NCBI GenBank assembly: GCA_963848815.1
Contig: CAWKFY010000031.1
Location: 637 to 64,636 of the forward strand
DNA length: 64,000 bases
Source: an uncultured Chloroflexia bacterium
GTDB taxonomy: Bacteria; Chloroflexota; Dehalococcoidia; GIF9; UBA5629
Direction: 5' to 3'
Both the position numbers and the translations under genes were made by a program. A model generated the notes under the pieces. That model was not told the DNA's origin. It ran no database searches and saw only the letters and a list, made by a program, of their open reading frames with translations. Of the stretch, positions 36,373 through 58,591 are shown piece after piece (position 1 is the first letter of the stretch; the number at the start of each line of letters is the position of its first letter).

Positions 36373-37329
36373 TCAGCAACTTGCCGTCAGCAGGTAAACC
36401 ACAGGTATCGTCAGGACGCTCAAAAAGTACATGGCTATCGTCAGGGCCGAGGCCAGCTTGCCGTTGCATCCGTAGCGCGAGGCGATAACGGCGGCCACGG
36501 CTCCCGCCGGCATGGCAGCCTCGATAACCAGCACCTGCTCATCGAGCTTGCACAGTCCACAAATATGAGCCCCTGCCAGTGCTATGAGAGGCTCCGCAAC
36601 CAGGTTGATGCAGAACAAAGCTGCAATAGGCGGCAACAGGTGCTTGACAGGTATCTTCTGCAGCAGCAACCCCACGGCAATGGCGGTAAACAGCTCAAGG
36701 GAATTACCCATTATGTCAAAGAGTTTATAGAGGGTCTGTAAAGCATAATTATCCGTCGGAAGCTTGAGAAATGAAACGGCAATGCCCAGTACAAGCGCTA
36801 TGAAAATGGGGGAGCGGAAGAATGCCAGGACGGACATGATCTCGCTCCTGCGGTCCGGATGCTCCTTGCCGAAATACATGGCAAATGGGATTGACAGGAC
36901 GAACAGCGGGATGCCGGCGCCCAGCTCGCTTACGATCATGGCGTCCTGCATGGCCTGCGTATTGTTGAAGAAGATCTGCATGATCAGCGCATATCCCAGG
37001 GTCGAGGAGCTGCCCCAGCCTGCTACCAGGACGAATGCGCCCAGGGACTTCCTGTCCATTTTCAAGAGCCTGCCTGCAATATAACCCAGGGAACAGGCTA
37101 TCAATATAGTGCACAGCATCAGGAGGGCAAGTACAAGCTTGTCGGGATCGAATGTCCTTCTCGAGAGGCTGGCAAATATCAGGGCGGGTAGTGCAACGTC
37201 TGTCACGAGCTGCGAGAAAAGCGCCTCATGGTCGGTTGAGAGAATAGACCATTTCCTCAACAGCAGCGTGAGGGATACCAGCGCCACCAGTATGAAAAGT
37301 GACCCGAGCAGTGGATAGAAATAGCTCAT
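36373..37329 (-). CDS. AEC (auxin efflux carrier) family permease
   Basis: 318-aa polytopic membrane protein with the two-repeat AEC-like layout. Confidence 0.7.
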   Translation of the reverse strand: MSYFYPLLGSLFILVALVSLTLLLRKWSILSTDHEALFSQLVTDVALPALIFASLSRRTFDPDKLVLALLMLCTILIACSLGYIAGRLLKMDRKSLGAFVLVAGWGSSSTLGYALIMQIFFNNTQAMQDAMIVSELGAGIPLFVLSIPFAMYFGKEHPDRRSEIMSVLAFFRSPIFIALVLGIAVSFLKLPTDNYALQTLYKLFDIMGNSLELFTAIAVGLLLQKIPVKHLLPPIAALFCINLVAEPLIALAGAHICGLCKLDEQVLVIEAAMPAGAVAAVIASRYGCNGKLASALTIAMYFLSVLTIPVVYLLTASC

Positions 37330-37379: not shown

Positions 37380-37411
37380 AAAAAAGTCCGTCTTTTCAAG
37401 ACGGGCTTTTT
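37380..37411 (-). terminator. bidirectional hairpin terminator downstream of tRNA-like copy A
   Basis: AAAAAAGTCCGTCTT-TTC-AAGACGGGCTTTTT. The same hairpin recurs in repeat units B, C and D. Confidence 0.7.
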
Positions 37412-37420
37412 AATACTCTT

Positions 37421-37499
37421 TGGTAGCGAGGGCAGGATTTGAACCTGGACCTTCGGGTTTCGGGTTATGAACCCGACGAGTTGCCTGCTCCACCCCGCG
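37421..37499 (-). pseudogene. degenerate full-length copy of initiator tRNA-Met (copy A)
   Basis: The reverse complement is cgcggggtggagcaggcaactcgtcgggttcataacccgaaacccgaaggtccaggttcaaatcctgccctcgctacca. Compared with the intact gene at 42237-42311 it has a 7-nt ACCCGAA duplication after the anticodon stem, a 2-nt shorter D-arm and a 1-nt deletion in the T-stem. Confidence 0.75.
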
Positions 37500-37693
37500 G
37501 CATACTTAGTAGTTATTGACGAATTGGAGCCTTGTGATCACGGCTCCGATTTTAATGTCATAGCAGTCCACACTTTAATTAGGCATTCGCTGAGGCACAT
37601 ATTGCATCAAAAATTGATGCGTAGCCATATCTATTTATACTTATGAACTGTTGTGGTGCTATACTATTCCGAATTTGACTATGCGAATATAAA

Positions 37694-38371
37694 ATGTTGA
37701 TTTTTGAAAGACCGGGCCCGATCAATACGGATAGGGTAATCGACATAGTAGAGCGCATTTCCAACACATGCGCGCATATTGTAGTAGCTTCTATTACGGG
37801 TGACAGCGCTCTTAAGATCGCCAGGAGGATCAAGGATAAAGTAGTATGTGTTACCTGCCCGCAGGGAATGAGCTGGGAAGTCGACGGGATGAACAGCGGT
37901 CCCTTTGCCGAAATCCCCGAATTAAAGACCATCCGGGACCGGTGGGTTGACCAGGGATCGAGAAAAATACCTATGGACGTCACAGAGGATAACCGGACTG
38001 AGCTTGACCGGCTGAACGTTAAGGTTGTCCGCGGGACGATCCCCTTTTTCGGCCCCAGTTTCTCGGAGCGGATACACTTAAGAAAGATTACTTCGCTGGA
38101 CGTCATTGCCAAAACGCTCGAATTAATCTCGACTGGAACGCTGGTCTGCATGGAATGCGTATTAATGAGTACCGATAGTGGCGTTATCCCCGAAGGTGAG
38201 AAGGTCATAGCACTGGCGGGGACCGAAAGAGGGCTTGATACAGCCTGGATTGTAAGGAGCAGCGCATCGGCCAACCTTTTTCATCCGACCAAAGGGTTTA
38301 GATTCATTGAATTACTCGCTAAACCGGAAATATCTTTGCAGCCGGGCATAAACATAGAATACCTCAGCTGA
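37694..38371 (+). CDS. pyruvate kinase C-terminal (alpha/beta) domain-like protein (cargo of module 1)
   Basis: 225 aa. Segments MLIFERPGPINTDRVIDIVERI...HIVVASITGDSALKIA...VCMECVLMSTDSGVIPEGEKVIALAGTERGLDTAWIV match the stand-alone PK_C-like family pattern as I recall it. Confidence 0.45.
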   Translation: MLIFERPGPINTDRVIDIVERISNTCAHIVVASITGDSALKIARRIKDKVVCVTCPQGMSWEVDGMNSGPFAEIPELKTIRDRWVDQGSRKIPMDVTEDNRTELDRLNVKVVRGTIPFFGPSFSERIHLRKITSLDVIAKTLELISTGTLVCMECVLMSTDSGVIPEGEKVIALAGTERGLDTAWIVRSSASANLFHPTKGFRFIELLAKPEISLQPGINIEYLS

Positions 38372-38488
38372 TTAATTTGACGCCCATATTCAATAACCGG
38401 AACCTTTTGATATGGCCGATGTATCTATATACATTTTGGTCTTTGTCGCAGCGATTGTCATTTCCATGTTCCAAGGTATACCGTCGGC

Positions 38489-38588
38489 TTATTATTACCC
38501 AAATAAAAAAGCCCGTTTTTTCAAGACGGGCTTTTTTATACGAGTTGGTAGCGAGGGCAGGATTTGAACCTGCAACCTTCGGGTTACG
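38489..38588 (-). repeat. repeat unit B: terminator hairpin + 41-43 nt of the tRNA-fMet 3' end
   Basis: ATTATTACCCAAATAAAAAAGCCCGTTTTTTCAAGACGGGCTTTTTT...TGGTAGCGAGGGCAGGATTTGAACCTGCAACCTTCGGGTTA. It aligns with the 3' part of the tRNA at 42237-42311. Confidence 0.8.
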
Positions 38589-38715
38589 TTGACAGTCCTG
38601 CTATACTGGAACAACCATCATTTGGAAAGGGACAACACCAGCATCGGTAGATGAAGCGATGGTGTAAATCTGGGTTTAAGTAGAGACCGTTCGATAAGGA
38701 GGATATATTACGAAT

Positions 38716-39432
38716 ATGGAGAACTACCCGGCAAAATTATCCGTTGACTACAGTGAGAAACTTGGCAGGTTGTCTACCTTCTTCAGAGGGATTATTGCCA
38801 TCCCCATTTCAGTAATAAGCGGCCCATTAAACTGGGGAATAGCTGCCCTGAATAACTATAGTATGTCAGCCCCGCTATTTATCTTGTTAGCATTGGTCTT
38901 TTTTCTGATCTTACCGCTAATACCTACGGGTCACGCGGGAGGCCTTCCCGCATGGTATCCATTCCTGTACCTGGCTTATGTGCCTCTTTACCTGATACTT
39001 TCGCCACTGGTGATGATGATCCTTTTCAGAAAGAAATACCCCAGGTGGTGGTTCGACTGGGGCATTGGCGTCACCCAATTCCTTTACCGTGTCTGGGCAT
39101 TCATGTTCCTTCTCACTGATAAATATCCTTCAACCGATGATGAGCAGCTTGTGCATATCTCAATAGACTATCCCGACGCTCCAAAAGACCTGATGCGCGG
39201 CCTACCTCTCATTAAATGGATTTTGGCTATCCCCCACTATATTGTCCTTTTCGTCCTCGCAGTAGCCGTATGGGTAGTCACTGTCATCGCATGGTTTGCC
39301 ATACTGTTTACAGGCAATTACCCCCGGAGCTTGTTTGATTTCGTCGTTGGATTTCTGCGTTGGAACCTTCGAGTTTGGACATACGTTATCCTGCTTGCTA
39401 CGGACAAGTACCCGCCATTTAGCCTGAAGTAG
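38716..39432 (+). CDS. DUF4389-like integral membrane protein (cargo of module 2)
   Basis: 238 aa with an AAGGAGG RBS. It carries the pattern LAIPHYIVLF...VIAWFAILFTGNYPRSLFDFVVGFLRWNLRVWTYVILLATDKYPPF. Confidence 0.6.
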   Translation: MENYPAKLSVDYSEKLGRLSTFFRGIIAIPISVISGPLNWGIAALNNYSMSAPLFILLALVFFLILPLIPTGHAGGLPAWYPFLYLAYVPLYLILSPLVMMILFRKKYPRWWFDWGIGVTQFLYRVWAFMFLLTDKYPSTDDEQLVHISIDYPDAPKDLMRGLPLIKWILAIPHYIVLFVLAVAVWVVTVIAWFAILFTGNYPRSLFDFVVGFLRWNLRVWTYVILLATDKYPPFSLK

Positions 39433-39455
39433 AGTCTTATCCATCGATTGTAAAA

Positions 39456-39540
39456 CCATTATTACCCAAATAAAAAAGCCCGTCTTAATAAGACGGGCTT
39501 TTTAATACTCTTGGTAGCGGGGCAGGATTTGAACCTGCGA
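39456..39540 (-). repeat. repeat unit C: terminator hairpin + 29 nt of the tRNA-fMet 3' end
   Basis: CCATTATTACCCAAATAAAAAAGCCCGTCTTAATAAGACGGGCTTTTT...TGGTAGCGGGGCAGGATTTGAACCTGCGA. Confidence 0.8.
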
Positions 39541-39569
39541 ATCGATCGGCTCTTGGTATTCCCGTTCCC

Positions 39570-40401
39570 TTACCTCCAGACGATCCTGGGGGCTTTGCGG
39601 ACAGGTATTCTATGGTATTTGAACTTATTATACCCCAGCAGCATAGCTCCATAAGCCTGATGGCCTTCGGGCAGCGCCAGGGCCGCCTGAACCGGAGGGA
39701 AGGTGTTGGCCATCATGTAAACATATCCCGCCCAGCAGGTGGCCAGGCCCAGGCTGTTAGCCGCCAGGTCCAGAAAACTCAAGGCGTTGGCGCTATCAAT
39801 GCCGGCGAGAAGCGAGACTGAGAAATCTTTACTGGCATGGGTAACAATCAATACCGGGGCGCCGCGCAAAAATGCATTGTGGTTCATTTCGTTGTCTTTC
39901 CAGCCTTGCTTGAAAATTGGATTTCTCGGCCATTCCCGGAAGGTTCTCAATTACCCACTTTAGCCAGTCGGTGCCGAGCTCTTCAATGCGGTCCAGCTCT
40001 TTTTTATCGTCGATTACCAGCCATTCCATCTCTTGACGGTTAGACCCTGTCGGCGCGTAGCGGGCGTCCTCTATCAGGCGGGTAATTATTTCGCGTGGTA
40101 CCGGCTTGTTCTTGAAGACCCTGGCCGAACGGCGGCCCTTTAATAGCTGCTCGACCTGTTCCGGAGTTATCTTAAGGCCCTTATTTATCAGCGGAGACTC
40201 TTTTAGCGGCGAGTCCCGATGGCTCAGGCTTCCGCTGGGACACACCACAACGCAATGCCCGCATCCGTTGCACTCAGCTTCAGCCTCTGCTGCTATTTGC
40301 GGGAAACCCCCGTCCGGCAGGGAAATTACCCGGCGGGGACATTCAGCAGCGCAGATGCCGCATTTATTACACGTTTCCTGATTGATTTCAATAATAGACA
40401 T
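39570..40401 (-). pseudogene. 2x[4Fe-4S] ferredoxin-domain / nitroreductase-family fusion, frame break near 39,94x (cargo of module 3)
   Basis: The N-part (ORF 39829-40401) has CNKCGICAAECP and CNGCGHCVVVCP plus a nitroreductase start (RRSARVFKNKPVPREI...APTGSNRQ). The C-part (ORF 39570-39950) continues the nitroreductase fold in another frame. Confidence 0.7.
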
Positions 40402-40424
40402 TTCGTAGAGTTAGAACCTTGAAC

Positions 40425-40535
40425 ACTAAAGTACTCTCACCACGCTGTGTTGCCCTTTTATCGTTCAAAATTATAGCCTAGAGACTTAAGGAGATTCACA
40501 ACCTGGTTGCCGCTAACTTGCGGAAGCTTTGGCAT
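40425..40535 (-). pseudogene. hicA: truncated HicA-like toxin relic
   Basis: The ATG at 40535 overlaps the end of the upstream antitoxin-like gene. Translation MPKLPQVSGNQVVNLLKSLGYNFER, then a stop, then KGQHSVVRV in a shifted frame. This gives about 35 of about 60 expected codons before the next gene. Confidence 0.5.
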
Positions 40536-40725
40536 CTACCATTTTGACCTCGTTCAAAGTTAGTATAATAATAGGTTCGTCAGTATCGCCAAAATGGCAG
40601 GAAACGGCTTCTTTAATATTCTCATACATATCATCAAGTGTTTTGCCATTGGTGAAGATATCCTCGCCAATGCCTCTAGCACACCAATATTCACCATCAA
40701 AATATGTTTCGATCTTTACCAGCAT
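40513..40725 (-). CDS. HicB-like/DUF1902-like antitoxin-fold protein
   Basis: 70 aa. MLVKIETYFDGEYWCARGIGEDIFTNGKTLDDMYENIKEAV matches the HicB N-domain pattern. It is immediately followed by the hicA-like relic. Confidence 0.5.
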   Translation of the reverse strand: MLVKIETYFDGEYWCARGIGEDIFTNGKTLDDMYENIKEAVSCHFGDTDEPIIILTLNEVKMVDAKASAS

Positions 40726-40765
40726 TATTGCCTCCGCTTAACCGGATTATACATCATTTATCTGA

Positions 40766-40836
40766 TGCAAATAAAAAAGCCCGTCTTAAATAAGATGGGC
40801 TTTTTGATACACTTGGCAGCGGGGGCAGGATTTGAA
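40766..40836 (-). repeat. repeat unit D: terminator hairpin + ~23 nt of the tRNA-fMet 3' end
   Basis: GCAAATAAAAAAGCCCGTCTTAAATAAGATGGGCTTTTT...TGGCAGCGGGGGCAGGATTTGAA. Confidence 0.75.
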
Positions 40837-40925
40837 TATAGGACCCGATTGCATTTTTGGTTAAATGTAGCTTCAGAACAGCGTCTCAGAATATATTTTG
40901 AGAAATACTGATCATTTTATCGGCG

Positions 40926-40959
40926 ATTATATACTTGACGCATTTGTCAAGTATATAAT
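40926..40959. repeat. perfect 14-bp inverted repeat with 6-nt spacer
   Basis: ATTATATACTTGAC-GCATTT-GTCAAGTATATAAT, checked base by base. Each arm contains a TTGAC core. Confidence 0.8.
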
Positions 40960-41116
40960 CCCCAATTTATTGATGTTCTGTGGATTTTTAATCCTGTTTG
41001 AGAGCCATGCTATTAAGATACTGGGTAAAGGCCAAGGCATCCAAAAGAACATTGTTGACGGTGCTAATTACTTAGGCTTATGCTATGCGCATCTCAATTG
41101 AGGCAATAGTGTTATA

Positions 41117-41959
41117 ATGCCCGAATTGAAAAATATACCCTTCCGTGGTATCTATGGGTGGTGGTTACACCGTAGCCGGTCTTGCAAGTGCACCCTAATC
41201 TTAGCAGTATTAGCAATTCTGTTCAGCTTGTTTTCATGGTGGTGGAGCAGCACACAAGAGTATTCTTCTTTCACTCTTCTATTCATAACTACGTCTGTAG
41301 TTATTGCAGTGTCAGCTATTATTAGCTCATTAGTATGGGGATGGCAATGGATTAAGGACAATTCCTCAAACTTAAACATCATAGCAACGTTCATAGTGGG
41401 TATGGCATTAGCTAGTTTTGCTTGGCTGACCTATGACCTCTCAAATAGAATGGTACAATATCAAGTCGTGCCTCTTATCCAACCCTATTCGAGAACCCAG
41501 CCTGCGGAATGGAAAATTCCTATTGGAGGCGCCACCTATCAGGGCGTGCTTTGGGATGTTGGTATATTGAACAGTGGGCCCAATTCGACTTTGCTAGACA
41601 GTTTCCGCGTCTATATTTATACACCGCCGAAAATACCATGGGAGCAGATCAATGATCTCTGTGTCTTGCTAGATAAGAACAATAACAATCTGGAAATACC
41701 TAAAATTATTCCAGGTAACACGGATATTGACGTAAGAGTCTTTTTATGTGATGAAAATGTAACTAAATACTTGGATGGTACTACTGGAGTACAAGACAAA
41801 ACTGAATTGTATTTATCCTTTTGGCAAGAAGGACAGTTGGGAAGTAATGACATATCCCGCTTTCAATATATATATAGCGATTTATTCGTACTTCCACCCA
41901 ATACCTTCACCGCCGATGTCGCCCCCAGCTTCTCTGGGAAAATGCCAGTATCCCAATAG
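41117..41959 (+). CDS. hypothetical membrane protein (3 predicted TM helices + ~170-aa C-terminal domain), cargo of module 4
   Basis: 280-aa ORF in AT-rich DNA. I recognise no family. The start codon is uncertain because there is no clear RBS. Confidence 0.45.
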   Translation: MPELKNIPFRGIYGWWLHRSRSCKCTLILAVLAILFSLFSWWWSSTQEYSSFTLLFITTSVVIAVSAIISSLVWGWQWIKDNSSNLNIIATFIVGMALASFAWLTYDLSNRMVQYQVVPLIQPYSRTQPAEWKIPIGGATYQGVLWDVGILNSGPNSTLLDSFRVYIYTPPKIPWEQINDLCVLLDKNNNNLEIPKIIPGNTDIDVRVFLCDENVTKYLDGTTGVQDKTELYLSFWQEGQLGSNDISRFQYIYSDLFVLPPNTFTADVAPSFSGKMPVSQ

Positions 41960-41960
41960 G

Positions 41961-42165
41961 TTACATTTTGTTACCCTTCTGTTACTTTTAAACGCAGCAT
42001 CACGCCCCCAAGATAGTCAATGAGCGATTACGCCATGCCAGCAAACAGATAACGCTTGATACTTATAGCCGTGCTGCCCCTGGGCTGCAGGAAGCTACGG
42101 CAACAGGTTTCGACAAGATAGTGTTGTCCACTCGTAGAAATACTTCCGCTAAAAATCATTATTAG
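41961..42165 (+). pseudogene. 3' relic of a tyrosine recombinase (phage-type integrase) gene
   Basis: Two frames read LHFVTLLLLLNAAS.. and ..HAPKIVNERLRHASKQITLDTYSRAAPGLQEATATGFDKIVL. Together these are the R-H-x-x-A-T-L-L and LGH...TLDTY(catalytic Tyr)S C-terminal box. Only about 65 codons remain and they are frameshifted. The relic ends 72 nt from the tRNA 3' end. Confidence 0.7.
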
Positions 42166-42236
42166 CAATTTATAAGCAAAAATGATAAAGGCCTCCGACT
42201 CTTTAACAGAATCGAAGGCCTTTTAGCTACAGAATT

Positions 42237-42311
42237 TGGTAGCGGGGGCAGGATTTGAACCTGCGACCTTCGGGTTATGAGCCCGACGAGCTGCCACTGC
42301 TCCACCCCGCG
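42237..42311 (-). tRNA. tRNA-Met, initiator type (anticodon CAT), CCA encoded
   Basis: The reverse complement is cgcggggtggagcagtggcagctcgtcgggctcataacccgaaggtcgcaggttcaaatcctgcccccgctacca. It shows a 1:72 mismatch and three G-C pairs closing the anticodon stem, both hallmarks of bacterial tRNA-fMet. Confidence 0.88.
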
Positions 42312-42361: not shown

Positions 42362-45309
<2,948 letters not shown>

Positions 45310-46445: not shown

Positions 46446-47288
46446 ATGATCAAAATCGTTACGGACAGCAGTTGCGACCTTTCGGAGGAAATTGTAAAAG
46501 ACCTGGGGATAACTGTGGTCCCGCTGTCCGTGCGTTTCGGCGAGGAGATCTTCAAGGAGCGGGTGACCATCACCGATGAGCAGTTCTACCACAGGCTGGT
46601 GGAGGGATCCATCCATCCCGCCACCATCCAGCCTAACGCCACGGACTTCATCGCCGCCTATGAAAAGGTCGGCCAGGGCGCCGACGGCATTGTCTCCACT
46701 CATATCACGCTGGTATTGAGCGGCACCATCAACTCGGCCAGGCAGGCCAAGGACCTGGCCAAAATCAGTTGCCCCCTGGAGATAGTGGACTCCAAACTGG
46801 TGAGCATCGCGCTCGGCGCAGTGGTGATAGCCGCCGCCGAGGCAGCCAAACAAGGTAAGCCGATGGCAGAAGTCCTTCAGGTGGCAAATGAGGCCATTGC
46901 AAATACACGCGCACTGGCCCTGCTGGATACGCTCAAGTACCTGCAGGCCGGTGGACGCATCGGCAAGGCCACAGCCTTCATTGGCACACTGCTGAGCATC
47001 AAGCCCATCATATCCATTAAAGACGGCGGCATCATACCTTTCGCCAGGGCACGCAGCTTCGCCAAGGGACTGGAACAGCTTGTGGCCTTCGTGGGCGACG
47101 GCCAGGGCATCGATGATATCCTGATCGCCTATACCACCGTCGAGGGCGAAGCCAGGGATCTGGCCGAACGCATATCAAAGATATATACCCGCAAGCCTGT
47201 CAAGGTGATGAGGCTGGGTACCACGCTGGGGGTCCATGTGGGGCCGGGGGCCATCGTCCTGGTTGTGCGCGATAAAGCCAAACAGTAA
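46446..47288 (+). CDS. DegV family fatty-acid-binding protein
   Basis: 280 aa. The pattern MIKIVTDSSCDLSEEIVKDLGITVVPL...TSQP-like...LSGTINSA is typical of DegV. Confidence 0.85.
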   Translation: MIKIVTDSSCDLSEEIVKDLGITVVPLSVRFGEEIFKERVTITDEQFYHRLVEGSIHPATIQPNATDFIAAYEKVGQGADGIVSTHITLVLSGTINSARQAKDLAKISCPLEIVDSKLVSIALGAVVIAAAEAAKQGKPMAEVLQVANEAIANTRALALLDTLKYLQAGGRIGKATAFIGTLLSIKPIISIKDGGIIPFARARSFAKGLEQLVAFVGDGQGIDDILIAYTTVEGEARDLAERISKIYTRKPVKVMRLGTTLGVHVGPGAIVLVVRDKAKQ

Positions 47289-48126: not shown

Positions 48127-48447
48127 TTATACAAAGGGCCGGCCCTGCGCATCTTTGGTAATAGTGCAGATATCGACTATGACCCATATATACACAATAA
48201 TCGGGACTACAACTGTCCAGCAAAGTAGTACTGCAAGCAGTAATTGGGCTACCGCTTTTCCGGTATATCCGGCATAAAAATTATGTATGCCGAAAAGACC
48301 CAGAAAAACGCCTAATAATATATAACCTATCTTGCTTTTTGCTTCCGGCGTGCTGATAACCGCAGCTGTATTACTTGTTGCTACACCGCAGTGCACACAA
48401 ATGACGGCATCGTCAGGTATTTGATTCCCACATTGCTTGCAGAACAT
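48127..48447 (-). CDS. zinc-ribbon + TM2 domain membrane protein
   Basis: 106 aa. It has CKQCGN...CVHCG followed by two TM helices with GIHNFYAG (TM2 pattern). Confidence 0.7.
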   Translation of the reverse strand: MFCKQCGNQIPDDAVICVHCGVATSNTAAVISTPEAKSKIGYILLGVFLGLFGIHNFYAGYTGKAVAQLLLAVLLCWTVVVPIIVYIWVIVDICTITKDAQGRPFV

Positions 48448-48566
48448 CCGTTACCTCCCCCTCAATAATTTCCACATTATACCGATTGTTTTTTTTAAAC
48501 GGCCACCGCTGCCGCAGCTTTATATTATATTAAACTTTGAAATATTTCACATCTACGGACTCAGGT

Positions 48567-48668
48567 CTATTCCCACTCTATAGTTGAAGGAGGCTTGCTG
48601 AGAATGGCGAAGGTCTGCCACATCTCACGATACAGTTTGGCCTTTTTAATCTCGTTCATCACGATCCA
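48567..48668 (-). repeat. displaced, internally deleted copy of the guaA 3' end (left boundary repeat of the islet)
   Basis: 48567-48600 matches 50561-50594 (34 nt, 3 mismatches, including the stop and last 11 codons of guaA). 48601-48668 matches 50787-50854 (68 nt, 1 mismatch). The 192 nt at 50595-50786 are absent from the left copy. Confidence 0.85.
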
Positions 48669-49001
48669 ATGGAACAATATAGTATATTCCAATTATTTTC
48701 TAATAGTACGAAATATACAATAAATTATATTTTGCTTTTTACTCAGGTAAAAATATAGCGAAATTCGAGGATTTAATAAAATTTCCTATTGATTTCACCT
48801 GGGTATTATGTTATTCTTCTATGCAGGTCGATTATGTATTTATATTTTTCGTATGATACAATCATCTGATAAAACAAATTGACCTAATACGAGTGGGGGA
48901 GGTTTATATAGAGAGGTTATATTGGGTTTTATTCAATGGCTTTCAGTTACCAGATTTCAAAGATTTATCCTTTTGGAATAATAGGGTTGGAGGAGGTAAA
49001 T

Positions 49002-49277
49002 ATGGCAAGTAAAAATATAGAACCACAGAAAATTAACCTTGATGAGTTACTAAAAAAGGACCGAAAGTTTCTGCTCGCAATGATCGATAATCCCAAAGAT
49101 GCGTTTAATAAGCAACGTATACGCATAGACAATAAATCTATCAGCAGTATGAATGCTGCCGCTGACCGGCTGAGAATGCAGGCAATTGCAGCATTTTCAG
49201 ATATTGCAAAAGACGGTTTAAATAATTGCTATAATTGTAAGGGCTTCGCTAGCGGTGATGCCACAAGCCCCATGTGA
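49002..49277 (+). CDS. 91-aa candidate RiPP precursor peptide
   Basis: GGAGGAGG lies 6 nt upstream of the ATG at 49002. Translation: MASKNIEPQKINLDELLKKDRKFLLAMIDNPKDAFNKQRIRIDNKSISSMNAAADRLRMQAIAAFSDIAKDGLNNCYNCKGFASGDATSPM. It has a long helical leader-like N-part and a short Cys-x-x-Cys C-terminal tail, and sits directly upstream of a radical SAM/SPASM gene. The 48936 start in the ORF track has no RBS. Confidence 0.6.
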   Translation: MASKNIEPQKINLDELLKKDRKFLLAMIDNPKDAFNKQRIRIDNKSISSMNAAADRLRMQAIAAFSDIAKDGLNNCYNCKGFASGDATSPM

Positions 49278-49407
49278 TGAGACTTTAGTTGACACGCAGG
49301 ACGGCGATTAACTTTATTGTCTTGTTATTACGTATAGCTATTTACAGTGCCAAAAATACTGCTTATATTAGCCGTATTTGTATTTTGCTTGTCAGGCTTT
49401 ATTGACG

Positions 49408-50527
49408 ATGTCCAAACCAGTGATTGCCCCATATTTGCTATCAAATGCAATAGTCTTCCCAATCGGTTTTCACTGGGACATTACACAGACTTGCAATTTC
49501 CAATGTAACTTCTGCCTGAATAGTTCGGGTAAATGCTCTCCTAATGAGCTGTCCTTTTCACAGAAAATAGAGCTTGTCGATCGCTTATTTGACCTTGGCG
49601 TGATGTATATTCGTATTCTCGGCGGGGAACCGTTTTCAATACCGAATACCATAGCTATCATGGAATATGCTGTATCACGAGGCATGCAATTATCATTCAG
49701 TACCAACGGCAGCCTACTGACCGATGGAATTGTCTCGGCTCTGGCCAGGATAAGAAAAGGTATTAGCTACATCCAGATAAGTCTCTATGGTTCAACACCA
49801 TCCGCCATGGCACGAATTACTAACTCTGAAAGCTCCTTCCCGAAGGTAACAATATGGGATGCAGTTATTAAGGCGGTACAGATTACCGTTTACTGTACTG
49901 GTAGTGATATGCCGTGAGAATATGGATGATGTCGTGCCCCTCTATGAGTACGCTAAAGCCATGGGTGCAGAAAATTTTAAATTAGTTTTGAAAGTTGATA
50001 CTGGAAGGGGTCAAAACACTGCGTCTTTTAGCTCAATTCAAACTGCACAGGATTGGAGTAATGTTATTTTGGTATTGCAGCGAATTGCATACCTTAATCA
50101 AAAATCCAGCCTAAAAGTGCAATATAATGCACGGCCTTTATTGGGAAAGTATATTAATGAAAGATTTGGTATTGGCTATTTTTGCAATTTTTGTGAAGCG
50201 GGAGTTAGCTATCTATACTGCAATCCAATCGGAGGCCTCAGCCCTTGCCCGTTTCTCAAAGATTCCGATACCGATTATTTATTCGATAGTGCCGGCCAAT
50301 TCGTTTTTAATGTAACCCGAAACAGCCTGCAGGATGTGTGGGATTCTAATGAATTCAATCGATTCCGCAAACTGTTTACATTGAATGATAATAAGGAATT
50401 ATTCAATATGAATTGTCCGAATTTACACAGCGGGGCGTGCCGTCCATGTGTGCTGTCGGGATGTCCATGTCTTCACCATATTCGTTGCTTTCAGGCAGCC
50501 ATTTCAGATTCAAGAATTACCAATTAG
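49408..50527 (+). pseudogene. radical SAM enzyme with C-terminal SPASM-like Cys cluster (peptide-modifying maturase candidate); one frame break near 49,882
   Basis: The CNFQCNFC (CxxxCxxC) motif is at 49492-49515 and ILGGEPF follows. After the frame switch the sequence reads LPFTVLVVICRENMDD...CNFCEAGVSYLYCNPIGGLSPCPF...CPNLHSGACRPCVLSGCPC (50183-50470). This combines ORFs 49378-49917 and 49859-50527. Confidence 0.75.
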
Positions 50528-50560
50528 TAAAACAAAGATCATTAAGACAGAATAGGTCAT

Positions 50561-52164
50561 CTATTCCCACTCAATGGTTGAAGGAGGTTTGCTGGTTATA
50601 TCGTAGACCACTCGGTTTACGCCGGGCACTTCGTTGACGATCCTGTTGGATATAGCGGATAAAAGAGGATACGGCAGCCTCGCCCAGTCGGCCGTCATGG
50701 CATCCTGACTGGTCACCGCTCGCACCGCTACCAGGTATCCGTATGTCCTGAAGTCGCCCATAACGCCCACGCTGTGCACATCGGTAAGAATGGCGAAGGT
50801 CTGCCACATCTCGCGATACAGTTTGGCCTTTTTAATCTCGTTCATCACGATCCAGTCAGCGCCCCGCAATATCTCCAGCTTTTCCCTGGTGACCTCGCCT
50901 ATGATACGGATAGCCAGGCCGGGACCCGGGAAGGGCTGACGCCAGACCATATCTTCCGGCAAGCCGAGCTCCAGCCCAACCTTGCGCACTTCGTCCTTGA
51001 AAAGGTATCGCAGCGGTTCGATCAACGTCAGCGCCATTTTGGCCGGCAGGCCGCCCACGTTGTGATGCGTCTTGATCTTGGCAGCCGCTTTGGTCTCGGG
51101 GGTAGCGCTTTCGATAACATCCGGGTACAACGTGCCCTGTGTCAGAAAATCTATCTTGCCCAGCTTGGTTGCCTGCCTCTCAAAGACCCTGATGAATTCC
51201 TGGCCGATTTGCTTTCTCTTCTGCTCCGGATCGATTACGCCTTTGAGCTTTTTCAGGAAGTTGTCGGTGGCATCCACATAAATCACGTTCATGCGCAGGT
51301 TTTTACGGAAGGTATTGAGTGCTCTTTCAGGCTCCTCGCGCCTGAGCAAACCATTATTAACAAAAATACATGTGAGCTGGTCGCCTATGGCAGCGTGCAC
51401 AAGTTTGGCTGCAACGGCAGAATCGACCCCGCCGGATAGAGCGCAAATTACCTTGCCACCATGTACCTGCGACCTTATAGCGCCGATGCTTTCATTAATA
51501 AAATTGCCGGGCGTCCATGTGCCCTTGCAGCCGCAGACCCGGTAAAGGAAGTTTTTAATGATATTGATGCCTTCCGGCGTGTGCGCTACCTCAGGATGAA
51601 ACTGCAGGCCGAAGGTCTTGCGGCCGTCGCTGATCACTGCATTGGGTGAATTTTCCGTGTAGGCGGACGATTTGAATCCCGGGGGCATATCTATCACCTG
51701 GTCGCCGTGGCTCATCCACACCGAGAGTGATTCGGGCAGGCCTCTGAACAGAGGCGATCTTTCATCGCTCACGTGCAAGACAGCCTGCCCGTATTCACGT
51801 TTGGCGCCCGGCGCAACGGTGCCGCCAAGCTGATGGGTGATCAGCTGCATGCCGTAGCAGATGCCGAGAACCGGAAGGTGGCTTTCATAGATGCCAACCG
51901 GCGTCAGCGGAGCTTTCTTCTCATATACGCTGGCAGGGCCGCCCGAGAGGATAAAGCCGCGGGGGTGGATGGCCATGATCTGTTTAGAGGGGCGTCATGC
52001 GGGAAAAGCTCGCAATATACATTGCATTCCCTGACGCGGCGTGCTATCAGGTGGCTGTACTGGGAGCCGAAATCGATGATGGCGATGGCTTCTTTTACGC
52101 CGTGCGGACACTTCGCCCGGTTTGGGGGCAGCCTGTACTCCCTGAAGCTCTTTGGCGATTTCAA
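50561..52164 (-). pseudogene. guaA: GMP synthase (glutamine-hydrolysing); frame break between the GATase start and the rest; 5' end uncertain
   Basis: ORF 50561-51976 (471 aa) runs from ...[10 protein letters not shown] through the ATP-PPase motif SGGVDS to ...PPSTIEWE. The GATase N-terminus [31 protein letters not shown] is in another frame (ORF 51904-52164). Confidence 0.9.
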
Positions 52165-52339
52165 GATAGGCCGAAACTTCGGCGTCGTCGGTGGTGGCTA
52201 CGCGGTGGCTGCCTGTTTCTTCTTTACCCTTCTTCATTGGAAAAGTATATCACAGGGCAAGCAGAGCATTCCAATGTGAGCCATATTTAAACTATGGCGC
52301 GATTTAGAGTACAATTTCTCTGTAAAATCCGCCCGTAAA

Positions 52340-52984
52340 ATGGAAAATAAAGCAATTTTGAAAACACTCTCGCCTACTCTTATGACCGGGTAAACCGGGC
52401 CGTGGCCGTCCTCCGGGAAGGCGGTATCGTGGCCTATCCCACGGATACCGTTTACGGGCTGGGCGCCGATATATATAACGATGAGGCGGTGAGAAGGATA
52501 TTACAGCATCAAGGACCGTCCCCTGAACCAGCCTTTGCCGGTGTTGATAGCGGATGCCGGATCAGGCCGGAATGCTTGACTGGCAGTCAACCCAAATTGG
52601 CGCAAATACTGATGAAAAGGTTCTGGCCGGGCGGCCTGACAATCATCTTGGACAAAAGTCCCGAGTTCAACAGCCTGGTGCTGGCCGGAGGCCATAAAAT
52701 AGGCATCCGCATGCCGGCTCACAAGGTGGCCAGGGCCATGATCGAGAAGCTGGGACGGCCGATTGTAGGAACGAGCGCCAACCTGCATGACAGGCAGCGG
52801 CTTTAACCGCCGCCGAAGTGCGAAAACAGCTCGGTGGCCGGGTGGATATCATCTGAACGGCGGCACATGCCCGCGGCGGCAGGGAATCGACCGTCATCGA
52901 CATGACAGTGGATCCGCCGTCATCGTAAGGCAGGGAATAGTACCCGAAGAGGGAAATCCTGGCCCTAATAAAAACAGGGGGTAG
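52340..52984 (+). pseudogene. tsaC: L-threonylcarbamoyladenylate synthase (TsaC/YrdC/Sua5 family), multiple frame breaks
   Basis: Fragments in different frames: MENKAILKTLSP / NRAVAVLREGGIVAYPTDTVYGLGADIYNDEAVRRI / IKDRPLNQPLPVLIADAG / LAQILMKRFWPGGLTIILDK...IGIRMPAHKVARAMIEKLGRPIVGTSANLH / LTAAEVRKQLGGRVDIILNGGTCPGGRESTVIDMT. Confidence 0.8.
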
Positions 52985-52989
52985 TTAAT

Positions 52990-53443
52990 ATGCTAATCGC
53001 CATGGGAAGCGATCATCGCGGGACTCGACCTTAAAGATAAAATCTCTGAGTTATCTCAAGGCCAATGGTCATACCGTGATAGACTTCGGCATGTTACGGC
53101 AGCGAATCGGTGGATTACCCGGATTTCGCCTCACGCGGTGGCACAATCGATCATGACCGGCAAGGCCGAACTACGGCATCCTGATTTGCGCTACGGGCAT
53201 AGGCATGTGCATAGCCGCCAACAAATTCAAAGGTATCAGGGCGGCGCTATGCTGCAACCCGGAGCTGGCTGTGCGCGCCCGCCGGCATAATGATGCCAAT
53301 GTGCTCTGCCTGGGCGCTGATTTTGTAGCGTGCCGCAGATGCGCTGGAAATCGTCAAGGAATTTCCTGGCAACGGGCTTCGAAGGCGGCAGGCACCAGCG
53401 ACGGCTGGATAAAATATCGGAAATTGAGTCGCAGTTTGCTTGA
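52990..53443 (+). pseudogene. rpiB: ribose-5-phosphate isomerase B, multiple frame breaks
   Basis: Fragments: MLIAMGSDHRG / DLKDKISE / GHTVIDFG / VDYPDF / [48 protein letters not shown] / [17 protein letters not shown]. Confidence 0.8.
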
Positions 53444-53547
53444 CAATAAATAATTACCTGTGATAGTTTACTACAACCCTATTCCTCAAATCTGGCAATC
53501 CCTATCAAACTCAGCAGGAATATGGACAGGAAGGAGGTATTCTTCAC

Positions 53548-55232
53548 ATGAGAAGCGACAGCATCAAACAGGGTATCGAAAGGGCTCCGCACCGGGCGCT
53601 GCTAAGGGCCGTCGGCGTACGCAGCAGCGATTTCGACAAGCCGTTCATCGGCATCGTCAACAGCTTCAACGAGATCGTTCCCGGGCATATCCACCTGCGC
53701 TCGATCGCCGATGCGGTCAAGGCCGGCGTGCTCAGCGCCGGCGGCGTTCCCTTCGAGTTCAACACCATCGGCGTCTGCGACGGCATCGCCATGAACCATC
53801 CCGGCATGAAATACAGCCTGCCCAGCCGCGAGCTGATCGCCGACTCGGTGGAAATCATGGCCGAAGCGCACCACTTCGATGCGCTGGTCTTCATCCCCAA
53901 CTGCGACAAGATCATCCCCGGCATGCTGATGGCTGCCGTGCAGGCTTGAACGTGCCGTCCATCTTCATCAGCGGCGGCCCCATGCTGGCCGGCAGACTGC
54001 ATGAAAGACGGCAAGCCGCAGGCCGTCGACCTGATTTCGGTTTTCACGGCCGTGGGCAGCGTAGCGCAAGGCAAGATGACCGAGGCCGAGCTTGAAGCAG
54101 ATCGAGATCGCGGCCTGCCCGGGCTGCGGAAGCTGCTCCGGCATGTACACGGCCAATACCATGAACTGCCTGACCGAGGCGGTGGGCATGGCGCTGCCGG
54201 GCAACGGCACCATCCCGGCCGTCGATTCCCGGAGGCTGCACCTGGCCAGGGAAGCCGGCAAGCAGATCATGGGCTTCTTAGAGAAAAATCTCTGTCCCAG
54301 GGATATCATCACCAAAGAATCCATCGACAACGCCTTCGCGGTGGATATGGCGCTGGGCGGCAGCACCAACTCGGTGCTGCATTTCATGGCCATCGCCCAC
54401 GAGGCGGGCATCAAATTCCCGCTGTCCCTTGATAAATGAGATAAGCGACAAGGTGCCGCATCTGTGCAAGATCAGCCCGGCCAGCGATGTCCATATCGAA
54501 GACCTCGACCGGGCGGGCGGCATACCGGCCGTGATGCACGAGATCAGCCAAGCTGCTGAACGGCAACGCCAAAACTGTCACGCTCAAGCCGCTATCCGAC
54601 ACCTATAAGCAATGCCAGGGTACGGAACCACGAGGTCATCCGGCCATTTTCCAAACCTTTCTCGAAGACGGGCGGCCTGGCCATCCTGTTCGGCAACCTG
54701 GCGCCGGGCGGGGCGGTGGTCAAGAGCGGCGCCGTAGCGCCGGAGATGATGGTGCACACAGGGCCCGGCCCGGGTCTTTGAAAACGAAGAGGACGCTACC
54801 AAAGGCATCATGGCCGACAAGATCAAGAAAGGCGACGTGGTGGTCATCCGCTATGAAGGCCCGAGGGGCGGCCCGGGCATGCGGGAGATGCTGACGCCCA
54901 CTTCGCTGCTAAGCGGCATGGGACTGGACAGCTAGGTAGCATTGATAACCGACGGGCGTTTTTCGGGCGGCACCAGGGGCGCGGCCATCGGGCACGTGGT
55001 CCCGGAAGCTGCCGACCGCGGCCCCATAGCCGCAGTACAGAATGGTGATATAATCAGTATAGATATACCTGCCAGGAAGCTGGAAATCAAGGTCAGCGAG
55101 GCTGAGATTAAAAGACGGCTGAAGAAGCCTGCCTCCATTCAAGACGCAGCATCAAGGGCGGTTACCTGAAGAGATATATTGAAAAGGTCGGCCCTGCCAG
55201 CGAGGGCGCAGTATTCAAAGATTCAGGAGTAA
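53548..55232 (+). pseudogene. ilvD: dihydroxy-acid dehydratase; at least 8 frame changes plus an in-frame TAG at 54933-54935
   Basis: The ordered IlvD segments are readable only by hopping frames: [19 protein letters not shown]...[13 protein letters not shown] / [16 protein letters not shown] / KDGKPQAVDLISVFTAVG..AELE / [24 protein letters not shown]... / [16 protein letters not shown]... / [11 protein letters not shown] / [31 protein letters not shown] / [10 protein letters not shown]...[19 protein letters not shown]...[22 protein letters not shown]... / [19 protein letters not shown]. Confidence 0.88.
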
Positions 55233-55241
55233 CTGGCACAG

Positions 55242-56937: not shown

Positions 56938-56968
56938 GCAACTCTAGATCATTAATGGAGACATTCAG

Positions 56969-57538
56969 TTGAACAGAAAACACATACTGGTAGCGCTTGT
57001 GCAGGACCGTCCAGGCGTGCTCAATCGCATTGCCAGCACCCTCAGAAGGCGCAATTTCAATATCGACAGCATTGCCGTGGGCAGCATCGAGGTCCCGCAT
57101 CTTTCGCGCATGACCATAGTGGTCGAAGGAGATGACGCCAAGGTCGAGCAGGTAAGAAAGCAGCTCGATAAGATAGTCGAGGTCATCAGGATAACGGATA
57201 TCACCAACGATAACCCGGTGGCCCGCGAGATGGCCATGATCAAAGTAAAGGCCTCGCCTTCAACCCGCAGCGAGATCATCCAGATCGTCGATATCTTCAG
57301 CGGCAACATCGTCGATGTATCCCCTGATTCGCTGATAATCGTGGTAACCGGCAATCAGGAAAAAGTGGAGACGTTGATCGAGTTACTGCGCGGCTTCGGC
57401 ATAAGGGAGCTATCGAGGACCGGCACCATAGCTCTGCCCCGCGGAGGGGCAGGACCGCTTACGATCGAAGAAGACAAGCCTCTGCGCCATGCCGTCGAGC
57501 ATGTTCCTCCGGAGGAAGAAAACCTTCCCAACTGGTAG
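56969..57538 (+). CDS. ilvN: acetolactate synthase small (regulatory) subunit
   Basis: 189 aa with a TTG start. The ACT domain reads ILVALVQDRPGVLNRIASTLRRRNFNIDSIAVG. This is the only uninterrupted ORF in the ilv-leu block. Confidence 0.88.
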   Translation: MNRKHILVALVQDRPGVLNRIASTLRRRNFNIDSIAVGSIEVPHLSRMTIVVEGDDAKVEQVRKQLDKIVEVIRITDITNDNPVAREMAMIKVKASPSTRSEIIQIVDIFSGNIVDVSPDSLIIVVTGNQEKVETLIELLRGFGIRELSRTGTIALPRGGAGPLTIEEDKPLRHAVEHVPPEEENLPNW

Positions 57539-57590
57539 CTTATTCTGACTCTTCTGAAATCACTATAATTAATTGCATTTTTATTTTTAG

Positions 57591-58591
<1,001 letters not shown>

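What the first reader, a model, noticed from the sequence alone, without database searches (positions are those of the whole stretch)
37380..42311. Tandem array of five tRNA-fMet-derived repeats delimiting four single-cargo modules
Downstream of the intact initiator tRNA (E, 42237-42311), the tRNA 3' end recurs four more times in direct orientation:
- D at 40814-40836 (~23 nt)
- C at 39512-39540 (29 nt)
- B at 38546-38588 (~42 nt)
- A at 37421-37499 (full length, decayed)

Copies A-D each carry the same A-tract/hairpin/T-tract terminator (AAAAAAGCCCGTCTT...AAGACGGGCTTTTT) on the distal side. Modules are 0.9-1.4 kb and each holds unrelated cargo: a PK_C-like protein; a DUF4389 membrane protein; a hicB-like gene with a hicA relic and a ferredoxin-nitroreductase; and an orphan 280-aa membrane protein with an integrase relic.

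The retained tRNA segment shortens stepwise from the oldest (chromosome-proximal) copy to the youngest. The pattern fits serial site-specific integrations at one tRNA followed by severe reductive decay. It resembles the tandem ssrA-targeted islands described in Dehalococcoides, but here the target is an initiator tRNA co-located with 23S rRNA.
Basis: partly seen in the sequence, partly recalled or inferred. Interest (0 to 1): 0.7.

Follow-up and report, generated by a model that had tools for sequence, protein, structure and literature searches.

The report
Decayed island array at initiator tRNA
Downstream of the initiator tRNA gene of an uncultured Dehalococcoidia bacterium lie four small gene modules, each ending in a leftover copy of the tRNA's 3' end plus a terminator hairpin: the scar pattern of repeated integration of mobile elements at one tRNA, a well-known process seen here in a very compact form.

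Summary
An intact tRNA-fMet (42237-42311, minus strand) lies 50 nt after a 23S rRNA gene. Its 3' end recurs four times in direct orientation:
- D: 23 nt
- C: 29 nt
- B: about 42 nt
- A: a full-length decayed copy that also includes 42 nt of the 23S-tRNA spacer

Copies A-D are each followed by the same trailer, bidirectional terminator hairpin (T) and TATTT tail. T occurs nowhere else in the 64 kb window.

Serial site-specific integration at the tRNA, followed by decay, is the best explanation.
- The module next to the tRNA keeps only the last ~55 codons of a tyrosine integrase.
- The closest homologue of that relic (TARA contig L086) is also a truncated relic. It sits in the same convergent layout against a tRNA-fMet, with a homologous junction.
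- Intact relatives are 392-aa arm-binding integrases beside tRNA genes on proviral contigs.
- A relative with 94.6% 23S identity (L067) carries different modules bounded by tRNA-fMet fragments at the same locus.
- hicA is truncated after about 20 codons.

Not supported:
- The "stepwise shortening" of fragments is not a rule; L067 shows the opposite order.
- Decay is not shown for modules 1 and 2, which have no relics.

This is a new member of a known kind (tandem accretion, CIME-like remnants, ssrA islands, tycheposon arrays). Interest is modest.

The parts
42362..45308 (-). 23S rRNA gene. The tRNA-fMet follows it after a 50-nt spacer. No 16S or 5S gene is present in the window.
   Evidence: Rfam LSU_rRNA_bacteria, 2756 bits
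42237..42311 (-). Copy E: the intact initiator tRNA-fMet (CAT). It has three G-C pairs in the anticodon stem and a C1xU72 mismatch. It is the attL of the array.
   Evidence: ARAGORN; Rfam 66 bits; sequence read
42187..42223 (.). Terminator hairpin of E (16 bp), lying between the tRNA 3' end and the integrase stop codon. It is unrelated in sequence to T.
   Evidence: -26.4 kcal/mol, z -6.8
41998..42165 (+). Tyrosine-integrase relic: only the last ~55 codons remain (…RLRHASKQITLDTYS…, including the catalytic Tyr motif). It is convergent with the tRNA.
   Evidence: Translation; homologues P0140-P0144; the L086 relic has the same layout; the intact 392-aa relative is in L087
41117..41959 (+). Module 4 cargo: a 280-aa membrane-type protein from a rare family. 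The region is low in GC (39-42%).
   Evidence: No Pfam hit; about 20 distant representatives; GC profile. The Logan contig L084 gives 301 aa through one homopolymer difference at 41936.
40814..40836 (-). Copy D: 23-nt tRNA 3' fragment (T-loop to CCA, with A73G). It is the attR of module 4.
40774..40806 (.). T_D: bidirectional terminator hairpin of the T family
40513..40725 (-). Module 3: hicB antitoxin gene (70 aa)
   Evidence: A member of the same >=90% cluster is named HicB and is followed by an intact HicA_toxin gene in L083
40451..40535 (-). hicA relic: about 20 codons (…VSGNQVVNLLKSLGYNFER*). Nucleotide homology to the intact hicBA of L083 stops at 40451.
39570..40401 (-). Module 3: ferredoxin (2x4Fe-4S) fused to nitroreductase, read as two overlapping ORFs. 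The frameshift lies between 39829 and 39950 and may be real or an assembly indel.
   Evidence: Pfam Fer4 + Nitroreductase on both pieces
39512..39540 (-). Copy C: 29-nt tRNA 3' fragment (T-stem to CCA, with a 1-nt deletion in the C-run)
39472..39506 (.). T_C terminator hairpin. It is followed by ATTATTACCCAAATA, which it shares with B.
38716..39432 (+). Module 2 cargo: DUF4389 membrane protein. The gene ends 40 nt before T_C.
   Evidence: Pfam PF14333, 63.9 bits
38546..38587 (-). Copy B: tRNA 3' fragment of about 42 nt (anticodon loop to CCA). It shares the acceptor variant T68 with A.
38505..38539 (.). T_B terminator hairpin
37694..38371 (+). Module 1 cargo: a 225-aa protein with a weak PK_C-like match
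   Evidence: Pfam PF02887, 27.5 bits, below the 28-bit cut-off. Reproduced in Logan contig L085.
37421..37540 (-). Copy A: a decayed full-length tRNA-fMet (37421-37499) plus a copy of 42 nt of the 23S-tRNA spacer (37500-37540). The homology stops 10 nt short of the 23S end.
   Evidence: ARAGORN; Rfam 36.5 bits; local alignment
37380..37413 (.). T_A terminator hairpin at the distal end of the array, about 50 nt upstream of the start of the Mem_trans gene
36373..37329 (-). Chromosomal flank: an AEC-family (Mem_trans) transporter. Its neighbourhood is not conserved in relatives.
   Evidence: Pfam; contexts of homologues

Best explanation
The region is a tandem array of remnants of integrative elements. 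These inserted one after another, by tyrosine-integrase site-specific recombination, into the 3' part of the single tRNA-fMet gene that follows the 23S rRNA.

How each insertion builds the array (inferred from the anatomy):
- Each incoming element carried an attP whose identity block rebuilt the tRNA 3' end.
- For most elements the block also covered the trailer AGWGTAT, the terminator hairpin T and the TATTT tail.
- The displaced older 3' end plus its terminator was left behind as a direct repeat (attR).
- Earlier modules were pushed distally.

Afterwards the recombination genes were deleted. Module 4 keeps only 14% of its integrase, and module 3 has a truncated hicA. Modules 1 and 2 are reduced to, or arrived as, one gene with its promoter and terminator. 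They are CIME-like: att sites retained, no integrase.

The T hairpins are bidirectional intrinsic terminators. Read-through from the rRNA-tRNA transcript, and transcription of the convergent cargo genes of modules 1 and 2, would stop at them.

What is shown and what is inferred:
- Shown: the repeats, the relics, the homologous integrase/tRNA-fMet junction elsewhere, and a different module set at the same locus in a relative.
- Inferred: the order of events, the crossover positions (anticodon loop for B, T-arm for C and D), and the terminator function.
For: - Direct repeats of the tRNA 3' end, with left boundaries at the anticodon loop (B) and the T-arm (C, D), far beyond chance.
- An integrase C-terminal relic lies immediately distal to the intact tRNA and convergent with it.
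- The relic's best homologue (P0140, 67% identity) is itself a ~100-aa relic 60 nt from a convergent tRNA-fMet in TARA contig L086. The two share the junction motif TTTTAGCTNCARAATT|TGGTAGCGGGGG.
- Intact relatives on IMG/VR proviral contigs of 14-23 kb are full integrases. The L087 integrase is 392 aa with Arm-DNA-bind_4, SAM_3 and Phage_integrase domains, and a convergent tRNA-Val lies 70 nt downstream.
- Relative L067 (23S 94.6% identical) has, at the same 23S-tRNA-fMet locus, different modules: an RHH/RelE pair and a 533-aa ORF. They are bounded by 35-nt and 17-nt tRNA-fMet fragments with homologous trailer/hairpin flanks.
- hicA is truncated relative to the intact hicBA in L083.
- GC content is heterogeneous: module 4 is 39-42%, against 50-55% in the flanks.
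- T hairpins are stable on both strands.
- The process is documented elsewhere: ssrA islands and CIME-type islands without integration modules (PMC3146451); decay to CIME followed by accretion (PMC5704250); successive integrations pushing older elements into tRNA-flanked islands (bioRxiv 10.1101/2020.12.28.424599).
Against: - No genome close enough to show an empty site, or presence/absence of these same modules, was found. Anchoring on both flanking proteins failed, and the genome-collection scan returned only unrelated gammaproteobacterial tRNA-fMet loci.
- No intact integrase was found in the parts of the window that were scanned.
- Modules 1 and 2 show no relics, so decay from a larger element is assumed for them, not shown.
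- Copy A contains the whole tRNA plus this lineage's own spacer, and it shares the T68 variant with B. A classical short attP does not predict this. It fits capture of the att region from a sister chromosome, or a Campbell-type homologous insertion.
- Excision or circular forms were not tested.
Confidence: 0.7

Rival explanations
1. The modules are small by design. They would be a family of integrase-less, single-cargo mini-cassettes, each carrying a tRNA 3' end plus trailer plus bidirectional terminator as a portable att site. An integrase supplied in trans (CIME-like or satellite-like) would insert and shuffle them. Decay of large elements would apply only to module 4.
For: - Modules 1 and 2 of the window, and the RHH/RelE module of L067 (677 nt), are extremely compact. 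They hold one gene or operon with 30-150 nt intergenic spaces, and the att fragment starts 10-40 nt from a stop codon, leaving no room for relics.
- The modules share an att-proximal backbone of about 60-100 nt but have unrelated cargo.
- The only module with an integrase relic (module 4) is the one that brought a different trailer and terminator.
- CIME-type islands without integration modules have been proposed for Dehalococcoides (PMC3146451).
Against: - Only four such modules from two genomes are known.
- Cargo orientation is mixed, and fragment lengths differ (17-79 nt). No single uniform recombination site exists.
- Module 3 contains a truncated hicA, so deletion does operate here.
- Intact relatives of the integrase have an arm-binding domain. 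That usually requires a complex attP of a few hundred nt, which these modules hardly have room for.
- No identical cassette was seen in two different contexts. The hicBA homologue in L083 is not bounded by tRNA fragments.
Confidence: 0.15
2. Local duplication or homologous recombination, with no site-specific integration. In this reading the spacer-tRNA-T unit was duplicated in situ, or inserted Campbell-style from sister-strain DNA through about 100-165 nt of homology. The array was then reshuffled by homologous exchange between the repeated tRNA/T units.
For: - Copy A carries the complete tRNA plus 42 nt of this lineage's own spacer. That spacer differs from the L067 spacer.
- A and B share the T68 acceptor variant that is absent from D, E and L067.
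- Every module is flanked on both sides by homologous units of 60-100 nt, which could serve as portable homology.
Against: - The left boundaries of B, C and D fall at the anticodon loop and the T-arm.
- Cargo in the four modules is unrelated, so this is not a duplication series.
- An integrase relic of a tRNA-associated clade sits at attL.
- Homology of 23-42 nt (C, D) is too short for efficient RecA-mediated exchange.
Confidence: 0.1
3. Assembly artefact. In this reading repeats shared between strains, or between tRNA loci in a metagenome, were chained into a false array.
For: - The source is a MAG contig.
- The window shows many split ORFs at 49-58 kb and one homopolymer discrepancy with another assembly.
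- Logan contigs break at the repeats.
Against: - The repeat units are short (60-165 nt) and diverged (71-86% identity between units), so they are not collapsible.
- L084 spans hicB, T_D, D, module 4 and the start of tRNA E at 99.94% identity.
- L067, an unrelated assembly, shows the same kind of array.
Confidence: 0.04

Closest known systems
Tandem accretion of integrative elements and CIMEs (cis-mobilizable elements) at the 3' end of tRNA or other target genes (Pavlovic 2004 and Bellanger 2011, as reviewed in PMC5704250)
   Same: - Site-specific integration at the 3' end of a target gene.
- Decay of the element to an att-flanked remnant without integrase.
- Further integration beside it, producing tandem arrays bounded by direct repeats of the target's end.
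   Different: - The described cases are multi-kb ICE/IME derivatives in Firmicutes, with demonstrated excision.
- Here the modules are 0.9-1.4 kb, the host is an uncultured Dehalococcoidia, and mobility is untested.
- Here each repeat also includes a co-duplicated terminator.
Dehalococcoides ssrA genomic islands (McMurdie et al. 2011, PMC3146451)
   Same: - Same class of host (Dehalococcoidia).
- Multiple tandem islands downstream of a single-copy structured-RNA gene, delimited by direct repeats of its 3' end.
- Some islands lack integration modules and were suggested to be CIMEs.
- Conserved sequence extends beyond the repeat itself.
   Different: - The target there is tmRNA, not tRNA-fMet.
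- The recombinase there is the serine integrase DsiB within a six-gene integration module. Here it is a lambda-type tyrosine integrase relic.
- The repeat there is a uniform 20 bp. Here it ranges from 23 to 79 nt.
- The cargo there is rdhA operons in islands of many kb.
Tycheposon arrays in Prochlorococcus genomic islands (Hackl et al., bioRxiv 10.1101/2020.12.28.424599)
   Same: - tRNA-proximal integrase.
- Elements flanked by partial tRNAs.
- Successive integrations push older elements into the island.
- Fragmented integrases and extra partial tRNAs remain as remnants.
- The host genome is streamlined.
   Different: - Tycheposons are defined elements with replication and integration modules and multi-gene cargo.
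- Membership of that family was not tested here, and no replication genes are present in this array.
tRNA genes as integration sites, with sublocations at the anticodon loop and the T-loop (Williams 2002; recalled from memory and cited within PMC3146451). Initiator-tRNA gene metV is listed as an E. coli island hotspot (PMC7545054).
   Same: - Fragment boundaries at the anticodon loop (B) and the T-arm (C, D).
- An initiator tRNA gene used as a target is already known.
   Different: The tRNA-fMet here is the gene immediately downstream of an unlinked 23S rRNA, so the array sits at the end of an rRNA transcription unit.

Membership tests
tRNA-targeted integrative-element array (accretion / CIME) | Direct repeats identical or near-identical to the 3' end of the target gene bound each unit | tested here: met
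   Five copies in direct orientation, with at most 1 mismatch or indel over the 3' 23 nt; 0 expected by chance
tRNA-targeted integrative-element array (accretion / CIME) | A site-specific recombinase gene (or its remnant) next to an att site | tested here: met
   A tyrosine-integrase C-terminal relic lies at 41998-42165, 70 nt from the tRNA. A homologous relic/tRNA-fMet junction is in L086. The intact 392-aa relative is beside a tRNA in L087. Only a remnant is present in the window.
tRNA-targeted integrative-element array (accretion / CIME) | Content at the site varies between related genomes (insertion polymorphism) | tested here: inconclusive
   L067 (23S 94.6% identical) has different modules at the same locus. 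No genome close enough to show an empty site, or gain or loss of the same modules, was retrievable.
tRNA-targeted integrative-element array (accretion / CIME) | CIME: integration and transfer genes lost but attL/attR still functional (excision in cis or trans) | not testable with these tools
   Modules 1-3 lack any recombinase and keep flanking att copies. Whether the att sites function needs read-level or experimental data.
Dehalococcoides ssrA genomic islands | Integration in ssrA (tmRNA) with a 20-bp ssrA direct repeat | tested here: not met
   The target is tRNA-fMet, and no tmRNA is present in the window
Dehalococcoides ssrA genomic islands | DsiB serine recombinase integration module at attL | tested here: not met
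   The relic carries the tyrosine-recombinase motif HxxxxxxxxLDTYS, and its homologues hit PF00589
Integron | IntI integrase with attI and Pc next to the array | tested here: not met
   The only recombinase trace is a lambda-type integrase relic. Pfam scans of ORFs at 33.9-63.4 kb found no integrase. The window left of 33 kb was not scanned.
Integron | Cassettes in uniform orientation, each ending in an attC site (imperfect palindrome with extrahelical bases) | tested here: not met
   Cargo orientation is mixed (+, +, -, +). T is a near-perfect A-tract/U-tract terminator hairpin without bulges. The repeated unit is tRNA-derived.
Tycheposons | Specific integrase and replication module families shared across elements | not tested
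   No tycheposon sequences were compared. The resemblance is in architecture only.

The most novel reading that the evidence does not exclude
The conserved 'tRNA 3' end + AGWGTAT trailer + bidirectional terminator' unit would be the portable attachment site of a family of integrase-less, single-gene mini-cassettes circulating in this Dehalococcoidia clade. Integrases supplied in trans would capture them at the initiator tRNA. The end of the 23S-tRNA-fMet transcription unit would then act as an integron-like cassette platform, with built-in transcriptional insulation, in a streamlined genome.
Probability: 0.12. Interest if true: 0.65.

Novelty: new member of a known kind. Interest (0 to 1): 0.3.

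Why it matters
The locus shows how streamlined, uncultured Dehalococcoidia pick up and retain single accessory genes: toxin-antitoxin pairs, membrane proteins and a nitroreductase. The site used is an integration hotspot at the end of an rRNA-tRNA transcription unit.

Each remnant keeps a terminator that would insulate the essential transcript.

The practical value is for annotation and for island-finding tools. Such tools would miss 1-kb integrase-less modules bounded by 17-42-nt tRNA fragments.

If the mini-cassette reading were right, it would be a second, tRNA-based route to cassette arrays. The present evidence does not require that reading.

Tried and rejected
1. The genome-contig scan with the T/tRNA junction pattern returned 41 loci. 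All were single gammaproteobacterial tRNA-fMet genes that happen to be followed by a GGGCTTTTT terminator.
2. The T hairpin alone hits about 20 unrelated metagenome and viral contigs. The stem sequence is therefore a recurrent terminator type, not a lineage marker in itself. Only L067 was relevant.
3. Anchoring on the flanking Mem_trans transporter and on the regulator upstream of the 23S found homologues at 50-80% identity. None was next to a 23S or tRNA-fMet, so no empty-site comparison was possible.
4. The more distant integrase-relic homologues (P0141-P0143) lie near tRNA-Ser, not tRNA-fMet. None of the 80 viral loci carries a tRNA-fMet signature.
5. The hicBA homologue in L083 lies about 2 kb from a tRNA-Pro, but no tRNA-Pro fragments flank it.
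6. All three single-base changes in the T stems give G·U pairs on the plus strand. Three of three has a 12.5% chance of arising at random, so this was rejected as evidence of strand-specific selection.
7. An integron-like reading was rejected on mixed cargo orientation, heterogeneous sites and the integrase type.

Full report
**What is there**

The window comes from a Dehalococcoidia MAG. Its own contig is 76,868 nt, and homologues of the flanking transporter are named Dehalococcoidia.

A 23S rRNA gene lies at 42362-45308 on the minus strand, with no 16S or 5S gene within the 64 kb. It is followed after 50 nt by an intact initiator tRNA-fMet, copy E (42237-42311; ARAGORN; Rfam 66 bits).

Going downstream of the tRNA, towards lower coordinates, its 3' end recurs four times in direct orientation:
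- D: 40814-40836, 23 nt.
- C: 39512-39540, 29 nt, with a 1-nt deletion.
- B: 38546-38587, about 42 nt.
- A: 37421-37499, a full-length but damaged tRNA that still scores 36.5 bits in Rfam.

Chance expectation is zero in shuffles.

Copy A also contains 42 nt of the 23S-tRNA spacer. The homology to E stops 10 nt short of the 23S end. Copy A further carries a 7-nt duplication (ACCCGAA), a 2-nt deletion in the D-loop and a lost G in the T-stem.

**The shared terminator unit**

Copies A-D are each followed by the same unit:
- a trailer, AGWGTAT;
- a hairpin, AAAGYCCGTYTT-loop-AAGAYGGGCTTTTT (T);
- a TATTT tail.

B and C share a further 15-17 nt beyond that. T occurs only at these four places in the window. 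It folds stably on both strands, with an A-tract on one side and a U-tract on the other, so it has the form of a bidirectional intrinsic terminator. Copy E has an unrelated 16-bp hairpin.

**The modules**

| Module | Between copies | Content | Evidence |
|---|---|---|---|
| 1 | B and A | A 225-aa protein with a sub-threshold PK_C match | |
| 2 | C and B | A DUF4389 membrane protein | |
| 3 | D and C | hicB, a hicA relic and a ferredoxin-nitroreductase read as two overlapping ORFs | |
| 4 | E and D | A 280-aa protein of a rare family and an integrase relic | |

Details on module 3:
- A member of the hicB protein's >=90% cluster is named HicB and sits next to an intact HicA in a Chloroflexi MAG.
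- The hicA relic stops after about 20 codons. This is exactly where nucleotide homology to that intact hicBA ends.

Details on module 4:
- The 280-aa protein has about 20 distant representatives among 1.84 billion.
- Only the last ~55 codons of a tyrosine integrase remain, convergent with the tRNA.
- The module is 39-42% GC, against 50-55% in the flanks.

Two contigs from an independent Logan assembly (run ERR11596056) reproduce 40576-42247 and 37508-38485 at 99.9% or better, and they end at the repeats. The one difference in the first contig is a homopolymer length at 41936.

**Evidence from elsewhere**

The T pattern found one relevant metagenome contig, L067, whose 23S is 94.6% identical. 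Its layout is:
- 23S, spacer, tRNA-fMet;
- a T hairpin;
- a 677-nt RHH/RelE module;
- a 35-nt tRNA-fMet fragment;
- a 533-aa ORF;
- a 17-nt fragment with a diverged T.

Anchoring all copies at the CCA end shows two things:
- Every displaced copy in both genomes has the AGWGTAT trailer, a hairpin and the TTTTTATTTGG tail.
- The three intact tRNAs (window E, L067, L086) have an AATTY trailer.

The same locus in a relative therefore holds a different set of tRNA-bounded modules. In L067 the fragment lengths run 17 nt (distal) then 35 nt (proximal), the opposite of the window's order.

The integrase relic has only five homologues in the 5.8-billion-protein collection, and all are short ORFs of 53-85 aa.
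- The best one lies on a TARA contig, L086. There a ~100-aa integrase C-terminus, with no integrase sequence upstream of it, is followed after 60 nt by a convergent tRNA-fMet. The junction is homologous to the window's.
- More distant relics lie near tRNA-Ser genes.
- A search of IMG/VR with the relic alignment found 113 relatives. The closest (77-82% identity to the first, L086 sequence of that alignment) are at the ends of 14-23-kb proviral contigs.
- In L087 the gene is a complete 392-aa integrase with arm-binding, SAM-like and catalytic domains. A convergent tRNA-Val lies 70 nt downstream.

The window's relic is therefore what remains of an element that was probably many kb long.

**Interpretation**

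The anatomy is that of successive site-specific integrations into one tRNA gene.
- Each element's attP rebuilds the tRNA 3' end. In this clade it usually also carries the trailer and terminator.
- The displaced 3' end remains behind as an attR.
- The left boundaries of B (anticodon loop) and of C and D (T-arm) are the classical crossover sublocations. This point rests on recall of Williams 2002, which is cited within PMC3146451.
- Loss of the recombination genes then yields CIME-like remnants.

This three-step path of integration, decay and accretion is described for ICE/IME systems (PMC5704250). It was suggested for Dehalococcoides ssrA islands that lack integration modules (PMC3146451). It is also seen as partial tRNAs and fragmented integrases in Prochlorococcus islands (bioRxiv 10.1101/2020.12.28.424599). 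Initiator-tRNA genes are already known as island hotspots; metV is listed for E. coli (PMC7545054).

The retained terminators make functional sense. Read-through from the rRNA-tRNA transcript would stop at them, and the convergent cargo genes of modules 1 and 2 end 40-130 nt from them. This function is inferred, not measured.

**What remains open**

1. Decay is demonstrated for modules 3 and 4 only. Modules 1 and 2, and the TA module of L067, have no space for relics and may have arrived as small integrase-less units.
2. Copy A carries the whole tRNA plus this lineage's own spacer, and it shares the T68 variant with B. The first module's att region was therefore probably captured from a sister chromosome, or it inserted through extended homology.
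3. Position in the array need not equal age, because any copy that retains the core could be a target.
4. The nitroreductase frameshift may be an assembly error. ORFs at 49-58 kb are widely split.
5. No near-identical genome was available to show an empty site or module polymorphism.

**Verdict**

This is a compact new example of a known process. It is not a member of the ssrA-island family: the target differs and the recombinase is a tyrosine integrase rather than a serine one. It is not an integron either: cargo orientation is mixed, the sites are heterogeneous, and no IntI was found in the ORFs scanned.

Interest is 0.3. The most novel reading not excluded is a tRNA-anchored mini-cassette system with a portable att-plus-terminator unit, at roughly 12% probability.

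Noticed in passing
window 49378-58406: Many housekeeping genes appear split or truncated: radical SAM (49378-49917) and SPASM (49859-50527) as separate overlapping ORFs, an ilvD fragment (54092-54439), ilvB at 329 aa, ilvC at 268 aa and Sua5 at 134 aa. Either this stretch of the MAG has indel errors, or it is unusually rich in pseudogenes. This weakens any 'frameshift = decay' argument in the array.
   Followed up: partly
window 41936 vs L084: There is a single homopolymer difference (GGG vs GG) between the window and an independent Logan contig. It changes the module 4 protein from 280 to 301 aa. Which version is correct is unknown.
   Followed up: partly
window 42362-45308; L067 1-620: The 23S rRNA is unlinked: no 16S or 5S gene occurs in the 64 kb. 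It is directly followed by tRNA-fMet in both the window and relative L067, so the initiator tRNA appears to be the last gene of the 23S transcription unit in this clade.
   Followed up: partly
window 48250-49500: A low-GC patch (34-39%, against about 50% elsewhere) contains a 113-aa ORF with no Pfam hit (48936-49277), just upstream of the radical SAM/SPASM pair. It may be a peptide-modification locus or another insertion.
   Followed up: no
window 40911-40974: A 29-nt inverted repeat with a perfect 12-nt core (TATATACTTGAC / GTCAAGTATATA) lies in the 280-nt non-coding stretch upstream of the module 4 gene. It looks like an operator.
   Followed up: no
L077-L082, L086: Truncated integrase C-termini (53-100 aa) near tRNA genes (tRNA-Ser, tRNA-fMet) recur in several unrelated metagenome contigs. 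The last part of the integrase gene seems to survive preferentially. One possible reason is that deletions reaching the adjacent essential tRNA are lethal.
   Followed up: partly
window 37421-37443 and 38546-38568: Copies A and B share the acceptor-stem variant T68 (CCCTCGC). D, E and all three L067 copies have C68. This hints at common ancestry of, or gene conversion between, the two distal copies.
   Followed up: no
L067 1333-1405: The 35-nt fragment in L067 is followed by the usual trailer and TTTTTATTTGG tail, but with a different hairpin (TCGCCGG, 36-nt loop, CCGGCGA). The terminator unit can therefore be remodelled while its flanks stay conserved.
   Followed up: no
window 47055-47152: ARAGORN calls a 98-nt 'tRNA-Asp (atc)' inside the DegV coding sequence. 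Rfam does not support it, so it is almost certainly a false positive.
   Followed up: partly
L083 6367-7544: The Chloroflexi MAG contig that holds the intact hicBA homologue has three HicB-like genes in a row (6367-6594, 6838-7074, 7106-7318) before a single hicA.
   Followed up: no
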